Position numbers and translations under genes: made by a program. A stretch of 63,999 bases of DNA, the filler included, from Malassezia furfur (taxonomy: Eukaryota): NCBI GenBank assembly GCA_052055015.1. It is 3 parts of 3 records of this genome, joined end to end, with 100 filler letters (N's around TTAATTAATTAA, not from the genome) between each part and the next. Parts side by side here need not be neighbours in the genome. Positions count along the whole stretch, not along the records: positions 23,668 to 47,161 come from JBQJIT010000151.1; 2 more parts are not named here. One strand, written 5' to 3'. Below, one piece after another: positions 23,568 through 47,261 of the stretch; positions within the stretch are counted from its first letter, which is position 1; each line of letters opens with the position of its first letter. The notes beneath the pieces are model-generated. The model saw only the letters and a program-made list of their open reading frames with translations, searched no databases and had not been told where the DNA came from.

Positions 23568-23667
23568 NNNNNNNNNNNNNNNNNNNNNNNNNNNNNNNNN
23601 NNNNNNNNNNNTTAATTAATTAANNNNNNNNNNNNNNNNNNNNNNNNNNNNNNNNNNNNNNNNNNNN
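23568..23667. other. Assembly gap with artificial TTAATTAATTAA linker
   Basis: N-run with a central six-frame-stop linker, identical to the one in the second gap. Confidence 0.95.
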
Positions 23668-35240: not shown

Positions 35241-35604
35241 ATGGGTGTGCAAGTCATTTCGTCGTACGACCAGTTCAAGCAAGTGACCGGTGGTGACAAG
35301 ATTGTCGTCATCGACTTCTGGGCGACCTGGTGTGGCCCCTGCAAGATGATCGGCCCGGTCTTTGAGAAGATCTCGGACACCAAGGCCGGTGAGACGCTCG
35401 GCTTCTACAAGGTCGACGTCGACGAGCAGAGCCAGATTGCTCAGGAGGTCGGCATCCGTGCGATGCCCACCTTCGTCTTCTTCAAGAACGGCGAGAAGAT
35501 CGAGACGGTCGTTGGTGCCGACTTGACCAAGCTCCAAGTACGTACACGGGCCCAGGATCTCATACTAACCCCAGAACGCTATCCAGAAGCACGCTTCTGC
35601 CTAG
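35241..35604 (+). CDS. TRX1: Thioredoxin (close to allergen Mala s 13)
   Basis: WCGPC active site, VQVISSYDQFKQVTGGDK N-terminus; one intron then NAIQKHASA*. Confidence 0.95.
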
Positions 35605-35652
35605 ATAGGATGCTGATAGCGTGGAGTTTCCTTTTAATTGTTTCAGACAGTA

Positions 35653-37077
35653 TTATGAGGTTTCTGCCAGTACAGAAGCTATGACATAGTCGCCGTCGTG
35701 CGAGACGCTCAGGTGCAGGCGTAATTGCTCGACCAGTGCATCCGCCAGGCGCCCGTCCGCACCGATGTAGTGCGCCCCAGGGTCAAGACGCAGACGTGGC
35801 TTGGCCGTGAGCGGGGTGTGGCCCCGCTCCATGATGATGTCGCGCGCGCGAAGCTTGATATGGGGGTACACAGCCTTGTATGTGGCTTCCTTGCATGCCC
35901 ACCTAGACGCGGTTAGTAACGAACGAACGCGTCTTTGCACTCTCGGCAGAGCTCACCTCGTCGCAAGGAAGCGCAGGCGGTCCTCGTGCGTCATGCCCGG
36001 CGCCATGTCCGCCCACACAGCCGACTCGGACTTGGACAGTGTGCGACGCGCAAAGTGCTGTGCCGCCTGCGCAAGGACCGACTCGGTGGATGGCTGACTG
36101 TCCTGGCGCTGCGGCATCGCAATGCGCGGCGCCTGAGAAAAGGCACCGTGCCACGGCGTGCTGCAGAGCCGCTGGGCATGCCGCGAGACGAGGCTGCGCA
36201 TCCGAGGGAGGTACAGGAGATCCACACCGACGCCCAGCACCGCAAGCTGGGCGGCCGTCGTACTGTTCGACGACAGGTCCGGCGGAGGAGTCGTGCCAAT
36301 GACATCGACCGGGCGCTTGGCCGTCTCCGGTGCCGCCGTTGGCGGCGGCTTGGCGCTCGAGCTACCATTGAAGCCAAGCTTCGACTTCAGCCGCGCCATC
36401 TTTTCGTCAAGCACCTTTTGGGCCTCACGGTTGCCGTAGTAGGCTTGGACCTTGAGCTCGAGCAAATCGAACGCGTGGTCCACGCCAATCTCGACCGGCT
36501 CGTCGAAGAGCATGGGCTGCGCATGTTAGCATTTTCCGACGCACCAAGAGCGGCACGGTGAGCAGGCCGGCGACCGTGGGACCCACGCTGCGGACGCGCA
36601 GGTAACGCGAGCGGGCAAAGACCGGTGCCGAGTACTTGACCACGCTGTGGATCGTGACCGCGGCTGAGTGGTAAGTAGGTCCATGTGTCACAACGTACGC
36701 AGCAGCAAACTGGGGGGTCAGCGGGGATGCACGTACCTCGACAGGAGCTGGAAGGTGAAGCGACGCGACGCGATCCACGAGAGGTCCTCCTTGGCCTGGC
36801 GCGTCGACATGTCGCGGCCCTCGCACGACTTGTAGCAGGTGTAGCCGACATCCGTAAAGATGTACGCCCAACTCACGGCATACGCGGCTGTGACCACACC
36901 GGGCCGGGTCAGAGGCCGGAAGGCCTCCCCCACATCGGACGAGTAGGCAATATACCGCGAGCTCGACGTCAGCAGCGTACGCAAGCGCATCGCATAAGCC
37001 GAGTAGCGGCCGACTCCTTCATCGTCCTGCGCACTGTACGTGTGGTGGCTCTCGATCTCTTGCTCGACGTGCGACAT
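35653..37077 (-). CDS. Fusion of MTP18/MTFP1 (N-terminal) and AcpS/Ppt2-type 4'-phosphopantetheinyl transferase (C-terminal), about 426 aa
   Basis: Exons 37077-36737, 36709-36699, 36663-36545, 36516-35957, 35902-35653 total 1281 nt. MTP18 motifs RYIAYSSDVGEAFRP, LPAVTIHSVV, PMLFDEPVE; AcpS motifs VLGVGVDL, RWACKEATYKA, LSVSHDGDY. Confidence 0.8.
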
Positions 37078-37137
37078 GGTCCGGAAGAGAAAGCGGGACC
37101 CCGCGTATGCAGGGTCTTTTGGCTGACTAAGACCACG

Positions 37138-37845
37138 ATGAGCCAGCGTCGAGGTGGGGGATCGACCGAGCCGACGCTCGCGTCGGCTGCTCCGCCGCTG
37201 AGCCATCTGATGACGCTGTACCAGCGCTACGACTCGCTACGTAACTCGATTGCGCTGTTCCGCGAGCAGACCCTGCATACGCCTGGCATTGAGGACTGGC
37301 TGTCGGTCCAAAGCAATTACACCAACCTGCTCTCGCATGTCTTCTCAATCGCATCTGCGCTGCACTCGCCGAGCCCACACTTTGTTGCATCGCAGCTTGC
37401 GACACTCAACGAGTTCCTTGAGACCGAGGCACAAGATACCAACCTGTTCGGTGACGAGCAAAACGACACCGAGATGAACTCCCTCCTGTACGACGACCAC
37501 GACCAAGACTCCCAGCTTCCCCCCGTCGAGGACCACGACCCCAAGAGTCAGCTGCCCGAGCTTGCCGTGCACCCATGCGTGCCAATTCCGGACAGCAAAC
37601 TGAACTGGCTCGGTACGCTGTTGCGCACGGTGCCCGAGGTCGAGACGAGTGCCGCCGAGTCGGCGCTGGTGTCCGACTACGACCAGAAGCACGCCGAGGT
37701 GGACGAGGGTGCACTTACGAAACAGATTCAGGCCCATGACGAGCGATGTATGAAAGCACTACGGACGTGGTACCATCTTCTTCATGCCCCCGACCAGGAC
37801 GGAAACACGTATGATTTTACCATGCGCATCGAAACCGAAGACTAG
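37138..37845 (+). CDS. MED8: Mediator subunit Med8-like
   Basis: DWLSVQSNYTNLLSHVFSIASAL and AVHP..P..WLGTLLRTVPEVE resemble Med8 conserved blocks. Confidence 0.6.
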   Translation: MSQRRGGGSTEPTLASAAPPLSHLMTLYQRYDSLRNSIALFREQTLHTPGIEDWLSVQSNYTNLLSHVFSIASALHSPSPHFVASQLATLNEFLETEAQDTNLFGDEQNDTEMNSLLYDDHDQDSQLPPVEDHDPKSQLPELAVHPCVPIPDSKLNWLGTLLRTVPEVETSAAESALVSDYDQKHAEVDEGALTKQIQAHDERCMKALRTWYHLLHAPDQDGNTYDFTMRIETED

Positions 37846-47161: not shown

Positions 47162-47261
47162 NNNNNNNNNNNNNNNNNNNNNNNNNNNNNNNNNNNNNNN
47201 NNNNNTTAATTAATTAANNNNNNNNNNNNNNNNNNNNNNNNNNNNNNNNNNNNNNNNNNNN
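47162..47261. other. Assembly gap with artificial TTAATTAATTAA linker
   Basis: N-run with the same linker as the first gap. Confidence 0.95.

What the first reader, a model, noticed from the sequence alone, without database searches (positions are those of the whole stretch)
35653..37077. MTP18/MTFP1 fused in frame to an AcpS-type phosphopantetheinyl transferase
Seen: after the last MTP18 motif (PMLFDEPVE) the frame runs without a stop through a Pro/Ser/Thr linker into LAVLGVGVDL..RWACKEATYKA..LSVSHDGDY. No Met sits directly before the AcpS domain; the nearest in-frame Met is about 50 codons upstream. Established: MTFP1 is an inner-membrane fission factor, and AcpS/Ppt2 activates mitochondrial ACP (mtFAS, lipoate synthesis, LYRM binding). 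I know them only as separate genes. Malassezia lacks cytosolic fatty acid synthase. Inference: a membrane-tethered PPTase or a processed polyprotein linking mitochondrial dynamics to ACP activation.
Basis: partly seen in the sequence, partly recalled or inferred. Interest (0 to 1): 0.75.

Follow-up and report, generated by a model that had tools for sequence, protein, structure and literature searches.

The report
Conserved MTFP1–AcpS transferase fusion gene
One small yeast gene really does join a mitochondrial inner-membrane protein (MTFP1/MTP18) to the enzyme type that activates mitochondrial acyl carrier protein, and the same join is shared by a whole group of related fungi, where it sits in databases but seems never to have been discussed.

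Summary
On the minus strand, 37077..35653 is a five-exon gene (four introns of 27, 35, 28 and 54 nt, one 11-nt micro-exon). It encodes 426 aa: an MTP18/MTFP1 domain (aa 24-170), its usual helical tail, a poorly conserved linker of about 42 aa, and a complete AcpS-type phosphopantetheinyl transferase (aa 248-426) with the Asp/Glu/Lys catalytic residues.

It is not an assembly accident. The same open frame occurs in 29 of 152 proteins fetched, including named Malassezia species, Exobasidium rhododendri and Tilletiaria anomala. It also occurs in two independent syntenic metagenome loci. Six of the 29 have no Met between the domains. Ustilaginales, Agaricomycetes, Pucciniomycotina and Mucoromycota have unfused MTFP1. 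Stand-alone AcpS-type enzymes of Agaricomycetes start with Met directly at the first strand.

Five public proteins already carry both Pfam domains, so the fusion is not unique, but five full-text searches found no paper on it. A link to the loss of fatty acid synthase is not supported.

Transcript, protein processing and membrane side could not be tested. The charge pattern and an older review statement argue against a simple matrix-facing C-terminus. Moderately interesting as a possible clue to MTFP1 function.

The parts
35653..37077 (-). Whole coding region of the fused gene (426 codons plus stop, five exons)
   Evidence: Full-length blastp gives 70% identity to the annotated 427-aa M. yamatoensis protein P0001, 1-426 against 1-427.
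36737..37077 (-). Exon 1 (codons 1-113 plus 2 nt), N-terminal part of the MTP18 domain
   Evidence: Pfam PF10558 at 4.2e-29, 102.2 bits, profile positions 4-73 of 171
36710..36736 (-). Intron 1, 27 nt, GTACGT...CAG with a CTGAC branch-like site
   Evidence: The mean intron in the curated M. sympodialis annotation is 30 bp (PMC5389616 Table 2, passage seen).
36699..36709 (-). 11-nt micro-exon that restores the conserved S-L-L-L-P of '..LPAVTIHS..'
   Evidence: Inferred from homology. With it the window reads LLSSLLLPAVTIHS, against SSLFLPAVTIHS in P0001 and LASIVLPAFTIHS in intron-less relatives. P118, A119, T121, I122 and H123 are nearly invariant and S124 is invariant. No RNA evidence.
36664..36698 (-). 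Intron 2, 35 nt, GTACGT...CAG
36545..36663 (-). Exon 3 (codons 118-157), MTP18 second and third hydrophobic segments
   Evidence: Pfam MTP18 profile 127-159, 20 bits on the 33-aa piece; alignment
36517..36544 (-). Intron 3, 28 nt, GTGCGT...CAG with a GCTAAC branch-like site
35957..36516 (-). Exon 4 (codons 158-343 plus 2 nt): end of MTP18, tail helix, linker, N-terminal half of the AcpS domain, all in one open frame
   Evidence: 60% identical over 100% of its length to P0001
36478..37008 (-). MTP18/MTFP1 domain, aa 24-170 (interrupted by introns 1-3)
   Evidence: 87% identical to P0001 over this segment; hydrophobic segments at about 59-79, 102-134 and 139-169
36373..36477 (-). Helical tail of the MTP18 protein, aa 171-205. 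It corresponds to the roughly 20-45 residues that follow the PVE motif in most unfused MTFP1 proteins before their stop.
   Evidence: helix 157-198 in the Meira model
36247..36372 (-). Linker, aa 206-247: Pro/Ser/Thr-rich, poorly conserved, variable in length, predicted disordered
   Evidence: 17-29% identity to four orthologues, against 59-87% for MTP18; pLDDT below 50 at residues 206-249 of the P0001 model; the gap between the two motifs is 48-89 aa across 29 proteins
35656..36246 (-). AcpS-type 4'-phosphopantetheinyl transferase domain, aa 248-426 (interrupted by intron 4)
   Evidence: blastp of the spliced window protein aligns 248-426 with a stand-alone Ramaria PPTase 1-126, E 3.8e-22. 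Orthologue P0001: PF01648 at 31.9 bits (cut-off 25), TIGR00556 at 51.1 bits (cut-off 45.35), Foldseek to AcpS structures with TM up to 0.86.
36220..36222 (-). Asp256 in GVGVD. It aligns with the metal-binding Asp of AcpS (E. coli D9).
   Evidence: (invariant column D257 of P0001)
35875..35889 (-). Glu349 and Lys353 in WACKEATYKA (AcpS catalytic Glu and Lys)
   Evidence: (invariant E350 and K354 of P0001)
36052..36159 (-). Lineage-specific insertion of about 36 aa inside the AcpS domain (aa 277-312), absent from stand-alone agaricomycete enzymes
   Evidence: alignment; low confidence at residues 279-298 of the model
35903..35956 (-). Intron 4, 54 nt, GTGAGC...TAG with a TACTAAC branch site, phase 2 in the Arg codon before Trp345
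   Evidence: Loci L001 and L002 each have a GT..AG stretch at the same position.
35653..35902 (-). Exon 5 (codons 345-426 plus TAA), C-terminal half of the AcpS domain with SVSHDGDY

Best explanation
This is one gene that makes one polypeptide. An N-terminal MTFP1/MTP18 membrane domain places the protein in the mitochondrial inner membrane. A disordered tether of about 40-70 residues carries a catalytically intact AcpS-type (Ppt2-like) phosphopantetheinyl transferase. That enzyme moves 4'-phosphopantetheine from CoA onto apo mitochondrial acyl carrier protein. The fusion point is where unfused MTFP1 proteins have their stop codon. The fusion is old: it is shared by Malasseziomycetes and at least some Exobasidiomycetes and absent from Ustilaginomycetes and other fungi. 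Shown: frame continuity, both domain identities, catalytic residues, conservation of the fused frame across species and at DNA level, and the lack of a conserved internal Met. Inferred: a single transcript, no proteolytic separation, a matrix-facing PPTase, and mtACP as its substrate.
For: The open frame and splice model give 426 aa. MTP18 scores 102 bits on exon 1. Orthologues carry both Pfam domains, and NCBIfam TIGR00556 is above cut-off. The AcpS fold shows 53 PDB matches at E<=1e-3, with the top hits all AcpS and target TM 0.75-0.86. D, E, K and SHDGDY are invariant across 18 fused and stand-alone sequences. In 29 of 152 fetched proteins the MTP18 tail motif is followed in frame by the AcpS motif, and 6 of those 29 have no Met between. 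The stand-alone agaricomycete enzymes seen begin with Met at or just before the first strand; one has a short N-terminal extension. Two independent metagenome loci (L001, L002) keep the same neighbours, an open frame and the same intron. The linker has coding-like GC3 of 0.79. The conservation profile is two conserved domains joined by a variable linker. The gene is squeezed between neighbours, with 60 nt to the divergent start and 47 nt to the convergent thioredoxin stop (reading). This leaves no room for a second promoter outside the coding sequence. In the MTP18 tree all 15 fused rows fall in one clade with 3 rows annotated as unfused, and well-supported branches force only one change.
Against: The window's own genome is not held, so I could not show that this is the only AcpS-type PPTase. 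Topology is a real difficulty. The 15 residues before the third hydrophobic segment carry net +4 and the 15 after it net -5. By the positive-inside rule this puts the C-terminal side in the intermembrane space if that segment spans the membrane. [quoted passage not shown] Most Malassezia sequences do have some Met in the tail or linker (23 of 29). Meira, Acaromyces and Sympodiomycopsis are annotated unfused inside the fused clade, so either the fusion was lost there or those models are truncated.
Confidence: 0.6

Rival explanations
1. Polyprotein. The fused precursor is imported using the MTFP1 part and then cut in the linker by a mitochondrial protease. This releases a soluble matrix PPTase and a normal-sized MTFP1.
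For: The linker is long, disordered and unconserved, which is a typical protease substrate. Cleavage would remove the constraint that three tethered AcpS domains must meet to form the usual trimer. Six residues just before the first AcpS strand are semi-conserved ((S/T/N)-L-x-A-(K/Q)) and could mark a processing site.
Against: No Arg at -2 or -3, as in a presequence-peptidase site, is present before the AcpS domain (reading; the motif itself is recalled). Linker length and sequence vary freely. There are no experimental data either way. Cleavage does not solve the sidedness problem raised.
Confidence: 0.2
2. Two products from one locus. An internal promoter or internal initiation, for example at Met 197 (MARLKSK...), gives a separate PPTase with its own basic N-terminal targeting peptide. 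The fused frame would then be incidental read-through.
For: In the window a Met followed by a basic stretch (MARLKSKLGF) lies 51 codons before the AcpS domain. 23 of 29 fused sequences have some Met between the domains.
Against: The Met is not positionally conserved. 6 of 29 sequences, including Exobasidium and Tilletiaria, have none. No unfused MTFP1 stop codon is retained in any of the 29. GC3 of the linker is coding-like in the fused frame.
Confidence: 0.08
3. Artefact: a sequencing or assembly error, or a mis-joined gene model of two neighbouring genes.
For: Automatic annotation in compact Malassezia genomes is known to create fusion artefacts at transcript level (PMC5389616, passage seen). 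Several public models of this gene are visibly wrong in detail (P0029, P0031).
Against: The join lies inside a single uninterrupted exon, not across a predicted intron. The same open frame is seen in 29 proteins from many species and in the raw DNA of L001 and L002.
Confidence: 0.02

Closest known systems
AcpS-type (group I) phosphopantetheinyl transferases: bacterial AcpS, and by inference fungal mitochondrial Ppt2
   Same: Same fold, same catalytic Asp/Glu/Lys and SHDGDY-type C-terminal motif, and single-domain size. The nearest stand-alone relatives are agaricomycete proteins of 119-170 aa named 4'-phosphopantetheinyl transferase or holo-ACP synthase, at 30-35% identity over 95-99% of the domain.
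   Different: There is no start codon of its own. It is preceded by about 247 residues of membrane protein and linker. It carries an insertion of about 36 aa after the first helix. Orthology to yeast Ppt2 itself was not tested, because no yeast sequence was in any call.
MTFP1/MTP18 (PF10558), mitochondrial inner-membrane protein
   Same: Full-length match to the family profile in the orthologue (positions 4-169 of 171). Family-invariant residues and three hydrophobic segments are present. The tail helix after the PVE motif is retained.
   Different: Unfused members stop 19-45 residues after the PVE motif in most of the 70 cases, and up to 110 in a few. Here the frame continues into an enzyme. 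No PDB fold relative was found for the MTP18 domain: 0 matches at E<=1e-3.
Fungal type I fatty acid synthase alpha subunit with an integrated C-terminal AcpS-type PPT domain (recalled, not tested here)
   Same: It is another case where an AcpS-type transferase is carried in cis at the C-terminus of a larger protein of lipid metabolism.
   Different: There the transferase is fused to the synthase that contains its own ACP substrate. Here the partner is a membrane protein with no carrier domain and no known role in fatty acid synthesis.

Membership tests
MTP18/MTFP1 (PF10558) | Profile match above Pfam's gathering score | tested here: met
   Window exon 1 alone scores 102.2 bits against a cut-off of 25. 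Orthologue P0001 scores 172.8 bits over profile positions 4-169 of 171.
MTP18/MTFP1 (PF10558) | Family-conserved motifs (RY.AY, SD.GEA.RP, LPA.TIHS, GPT..G, FD.PVE) | tested here: met
   Alignments. The window keeps all of them, provided the 11-nt micro-exon is spliced in.
MTP18/MTFP1 (PF10558) | Integral inner-membrane location | not testable with these tools
   Only hydrophobic segments and helices could be shown. Location in mammals comes from PMC9636241 (passage seen).
AcpS-type PPTase (PF01648 / TIGR00556) | Profile match above curated cut-off | tested here: met
   Window fragments are below cut-off (15.1 bits) because intron 4 splits the domain. Orthologues score 30.2-43.6 bits against 25 in 4 of 5, and Exobasidium scores 24.6. 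TIGR00556 scores 51.1 against 45.35 for P0001. The spliced window protein is 69-90% identical to P0001 in the core of the domain and 58% in the insertion.
AcpS-type PPTase (PF01648 / TIGR00556) | AcpS alpha/beta fold | tested here: met
   This is an AF2 model of orthologue P0001, not of the window protein, with domain pLDDT 80-92 outside two loops. Foldseek gives 53 PDB matches at E<=1e-3, with the best at 1.4e-6 and target TM 0.85-0.86 to S. aureus AcpS.
AcpS-type PPTase (PF01648 / TIGR00556) | Metal-binding Asp and Glu and catalytic Lys | tested here: met
   Asp256, Glu349 and Lys353 of the window fall in invariant columns of an 18-sequence alignment. They align to E. coli AcpS. The roles of these residues are recalled from the AcpS literature.
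AcpS-type PPTase (PF01648 / TIGR00556) | Homotrimer with active sites at subunit interfaces | not tested
   The three-copy complex job was never accepted because the queue was full.
AcpS-type PPTase (PF01648 / TIGR00556) | Transfers phosphopantetheine from CoA to apo-ACP | not testable with these tools
   Needs an enzyme assay or ppt2 complementation.
Fungal mitochondrial Ppt2 (orthology) | Acts on mitochondrial ACP and is the AcpS-type enzyme separate from FAS and from the Sfp-type Lys5/NpgA | not tested
   The own genome is not held and no yeast Ppt2 was compared. The assignment rests on fusion to a mitochondrial protein and on the nearest stand-alone relatives.

The most novel reading that the evidence does not exclude
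The fusion is a 'Rosetta stone': MTFP1 and the mtACP-activating enzyme work together. It would then say two things about MTFP1, whose molecular function is still unclear. First, its C-terminus faces the matrix, so the third, proline-rich hydrophobic segment does not cross the membrane, contrary to the naive charge-based prediction. Second, MTFP1 acts at the inner membrane in the holo-ACP / mitochondrial fatty-acid-synthesis / lipoylation / LYRM-assembly network. That could explain its reported effects on inner-membrane integrity and bioenergetic efficiency. A stand-alone AcpS-type gene lying about 2.1 kb from MTFP1, divergently, in two related ascomycete-like contigs would be a second, independent hint of linkage.
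Probability: 0.15. Interest if true: 0.7.

Novelty: new variant of a known kind. Interest (0 to 1): 0.4.

Why it matters
Both halves are well-known families, and the fused proteins are already in public databases under uninformative names. This is therefore not a new kind of system. Its value is as evidence. A fusion kept across Malasseziomycetes and Exobasidiomycetes, with an intact active site, constrains where the C-terminus of MTFP1 must lie if the enzyme is to reach matrix ACP. It also suggests, without showing, a functional tie between an inner-membrane 'fission' factor of unclear mechanism and mitochondrial ACP activation. Practically, it flags several mis-spliced public gene models. 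It also shows that in these fungi the mitochondrial PPTase cannot be found by looking for a small stand-alone gene.

Tried and rejected
1. A search of the window's own genome for a second PPTase: no genome is held.

4. Supplement of the M. sympodialis proteogenomics paper: only 14,595 characters are held as text, with 0 occurrences of five terms. Peptide tables, if they exist, were not visible.

5. ESM Atlas with P0001: only MTP18 clusters, at scores 0.89 and 0.81, and no structure search. Uninformative.

6. Foldseek of a confident MTP18 model (pLDDT 85.4): no PDB match at E<=1e-3.

7. Literature on MTFP1 topology. PMC9636241 gives inner-membrane location only. The bioRxiv MISO paper gives the topology of MISO, not of MTFP1. 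I disregarded the review PMC12477198, because the passages seen ascribe a GTPase domain and residues 400-750 to a protein that my searches show to be about 200 aa.

8. My first splice model was a single 92-nt intron, as in the M. brasiliensis model P0031. I rejected it because it deletes the conserved LPAVTIHS.

9. My early note that Ustilaginales models contain the AcpS half was wrong and was corrected. They stop 33 residues after the PVE motif.

10. Three-copy complex prediction of the AcpS domain: no job was accepted (queue full, 14 hand-ins), so there is no result.

11. An upstream in-frame ATG at 37206 was rejected as the start. That region is not conserved and overlaps the divergent gene's start.

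Full report
**What is in the sequence**

The feature is on the minus strand. Reading the reverse complement of 37250-35600 in three frames, an ATG at 37077 opens MSHVEQEIE... This piece scores 102.2 bits against Pfam MTP18 (cut-off 25, profile positions 4-73).

Homology to relatives fixes the rest of the model:
- exon 1: 37077-36737
- intron of 27 nt
- micro-exon of 11 nt: 36709-36699
- intron of 35 nt
- exon 3: 36663-36545
- intron of 28 nt
- exon 4: 36516-35957
- intron of 54 nt: 35956-35903
- exon 5: 35902-35653, ending in TAA

Joined in a script, this gives 1281 nt = 426 codons with one terminal stop. Introns this short are normal for the genus. The manually curated M. sympodialis annotation has a mean intron size of 30 bp (PMC5389616, Table 2, passage seen).

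It is a single uninterrupted exon whose frame runs from PMLFDEPVE (codon 158) through a helical tail (171-205) and a Pro/Ser/Thr-rich linker (206-247) into LAVLGVGVDL (248) and on to RFLATR. It has 0 stops in frame, against 2 and 3 in the other frames. The nearest in-frame Met is 51 codons before the AcpS domain.

**Is the linker coding?**

Third-position GC in the fused frame is 0.79 for the linker. The MTP18 part gives 0.85, the AcpS part 0.77 and two neighbouring genes 0.77-0.78. A nearby intergenic stretch shows no periodicity (0.58/0.62/0.57). This rests on only 48 codons and is modest evidence.

**What the two halves are**

The full-length orthologue P0001 (M. yamatoensis, 427 aa) is 70% identical to the spliced window protein end to end. 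It matches MTP18 at 172.8 bits over profile positions 4-169 of 171, and ACPS at 31.9 bits. It also matches NCBIfam TIGR00556 at 51.1 bits, against a cut-off of 45.35.

An AF2 model of P0001 built on a 13-row alignment is poor overall (mean pLDDT 65.6). It is confident in the C-terminal domain (block means 80-92) except for the linker (206-249) and an internal loop (279-298). Foldseek against the PDB returned 53 matches at E<=1e-3. The listed ones are all AcpS or holo-ACP synthases, with the best E 1.4e-6 and target TM 0.75-0.86. Sequence search of the PDB gave only weak AcpS hits, the best at E 0.0038.

In an 18-sequence alignment of 5 fused and 13 stand-alone proteins, the Asp of GxGxD, the Glu and Lys of W..KEA..KA, and SHDG.Y are invariant. 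In the window these are Asp256, Glu349 and Lys353.

The domain differs from the stand-alone enzymes by an insertion of about 36 aa after the first helix.

A second AF2 model, of the unfused Meira MTP18 protein on a 77-row alignment, is confident (pLDDT 85.4). It has no PDB fold relative at E<=1e-3.

**Is the fusion real, and how widespread?**

Three protein searches were run:
- (longer forms): 7 hits.
- (all lengths, 1.84 billion representatives): 17 hits at E<=1e-3.
- (profile search): 123 hits at E<=1e-5 among the 8000 candidates scored.

Together these brought 152 proteins into the session. A motif script over all 152 gave the following:
- 29 have the MTP18 tail motif followed in the same frame by the AcpS first-strand motif, 48-89 residues later.
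- 70 have the MTP18 tail and no AcpS. Most stop 19-45 residues after the motif.
- 53 lack the tail motif. These are fragments, stand-alone PPTases and divergent MTP18 proteins.

Named fused proteins are M. yamatoensis, M. caprae, Malassezia sp. CBS 17886, M. pachydermatis and Exobasidium rhododendri. All five have both Pfam domains precomputed. M. vespertilionis, M. brasiliensis and Tilletiaria anomala have models that end at intron 4.

Six of the 29, including Exobasidium and Tilletiaria, have no Met at all between the domains. The Met of the window is not positionally conserved.

Ustilaginales sequences all stop 33 residues after the PVE motif (...AAKEKVL). This holds both for annotated models and for plain ORF calls from contigs. 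Agaricomycete, pucciniomycete and mucoromycete MTFP1 proteins are about 200 aa.

Conversely, the nearest stand-alone AcpS-type proteins (Agaricomycetes, 119-170 aa, 30-35% identity over 95-99% of the domain) begin with Met immediately before the first strand.

**DNA-level confirmation**

A metagenome scan kept 80 loci out of 154 relatives. Two of the 80, L001 and L002, carry the fused gene. A single ORF runs from the MTP18 start to the intron. A GT..AG stretch sits at the same position before W..KEA, followed by an exon with SHDGDY. The divergent upstream gene is the same, and in L002 the convergent thioredoxin is the same too.

In the window the gene is tightly boxed in. 60 nt separate its ATG from the divergent gene's ATG at 37138. 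47 nt separate its stop from the thioredoxin stop at 35605 (reading).

**Age of the fusion**

I built a maximum-likelihood tree of the MTP18 part: 34 rows, of which 33 were chosen by me from the 152 so that named taxa and near-complete domains were represented, plus the window.

- All Ustilaginomycotina fall in one clade (support 100/99).
- Within it, 7 unfused Ustilaginomycetes lie on one side.
- On the other side is a weakly supported clade (81/56) with all 15 fused rows plus Meira, Acaromyces and Sympodiomycopsis, which are annotated as unfused.

The label needs 3 changes on this tree, but the well-supported branches force only 1. The simplest reading is one origin before the split of Malasseziomycetes and Exobasidiomycetes, followed by losses or truncated gene models. 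I could not see the DNA of the three exceptions.

**How it probably works**

Segment by segment, the window protein is 59-87% identical to four orthologues in MTP18, 32-69% in the C-terminal AcpS core, and only 17-29% in the linker. This is the profile of two functional domains on a flexible tether.

The tail helix that unfused proteins have before their stop is retained. The join therefore looks like loss of the MTFP1 stop and read-through into a downstream PPTase gene, with the former spacer becoming the linker (inference).

My best reading, at 0.6 for the whole statement and about 0.9 for 'one ORF, one primary translation product', is an inner-membrane-anchored PPTase that activates mitochondrial ACP.

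**The main weakness: which side of the membrane?**

The residues before the third hydrophobic segment are net +4 and those after it net -5. A 2012 review states that MTP18 is in the intermembrane space and associated with the inner membrane (PMC3578726, passage seen).

If that segment spans the membrane with the usual charge rule, the enzyme would face away from its substrate. The segment is proline-rich (3 Pro in 18 residues). In both models it is split between a short helix and the start of the long C-terminal helix. It may therefore not span the membrane, but that is speculation.

The rivals are processing of the precursor (0.2), a separate internal product (0.08) and an artefact (0.02).

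**Comparison with what is known, and novelty**

Full-text searches gave:
- MTP18 + phosphopantetheinyl: 0 papers.
- MTFP1 + phosphopantetheinyl: 4 papers, by title about fluorescent-protein labelling or proteomics (listing only).
- Malassezia + phosphopantetheinyl transferase: 6 papers, none about this by title (listing only).
- PPT2 + phosphopantetheinyl + mitochondrial + Basidiomycota: 0 papers.
- MTFP1 + acyl carrier protein: 4 papers, 3 listed, none relevant by title.

So the fusion appears undescribed in the searchable library, although it is present in public protein databases. It is a new arrangement of two known families, not a new kind of system.

That those genera keep FAS is recalled, not tested.

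**Verdict**

Interest is moderate (0.4). The fusion is a conserved, probably functional oddity, and a possible handle on MTFP1 topology and function. It is neither unique to this genome nor mechanistically established.

Noticed in passing
window 36664-36736 (minus strand): An 11-nt micro-exon (36699-36709) lies between introns of 27 and 35 nt. It is required to keep the conserved LPAVTIHS of MTP18. The annotated M. brasiliensis model P0031 skips it, and also skips a conserved block earlier in the protein.
   Followed up: partly
proteins P0029 and P0025 (M. pachydermatis-like): The annotated 355-aa model P0029 removes, as if it were an intron, about 47 residues of the AcpS domain. These residues are in frame in the plain ORF call P0025 and correspond to the lineage-specific insertion. 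Either that stretch is a real in-frame intron there or the model is wrong.
   Followed up: no
L036 259-828 and 2953-3576; L071 319-858 and 2944-3579 (L070 is the same as L071): In two related ascomycete-like contigs a stand-alone AcpS-type gene (189 and 179 aa) lies about 2.1 kb upstream of the unfused MTFP1 gene, in divergent orientation. None of the other loci with 3 kb of upstream flank showed this. It is either chance or a second sign of linkage between the two genes.
   Followed up: partly
window 37078-37137 and 35606-35652: The gene packing is extreme. Only 60 nt separate the start codons of the fused gene and the divergent gene at 37138-37842. Only 47 nt separate the stop codons of the fused gene and the convergent two-exon thioredoxin gene (35241-35537 plus 35576-35605). 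The untranslated regions must overlap.
   Followed up: partly
window 37138-37842 (+): The divergent neighbour encodes a 235-aa protein with no Pfam family at E<=1e-3. It is conserved and syntenic in L001 (1743-2720, minus) and L002 (2176-2868, minus).
   Followed up: no
window 23568-23611, 23624-23667, 47162-47205, 47218-47261: There are four runs of N, each 44 bases long, in two pairs 12 bases apart. These look like masked stretches and were not examined.
   Followed up: no
protein P0080 (Rhizoctonia solani, 639 aa): A public model joins alpha/beta-hydrolase domains to a C-terminal MTP18 domain and is marked partial. It may be another fusion or an annotation artefact.
   Followed up: no
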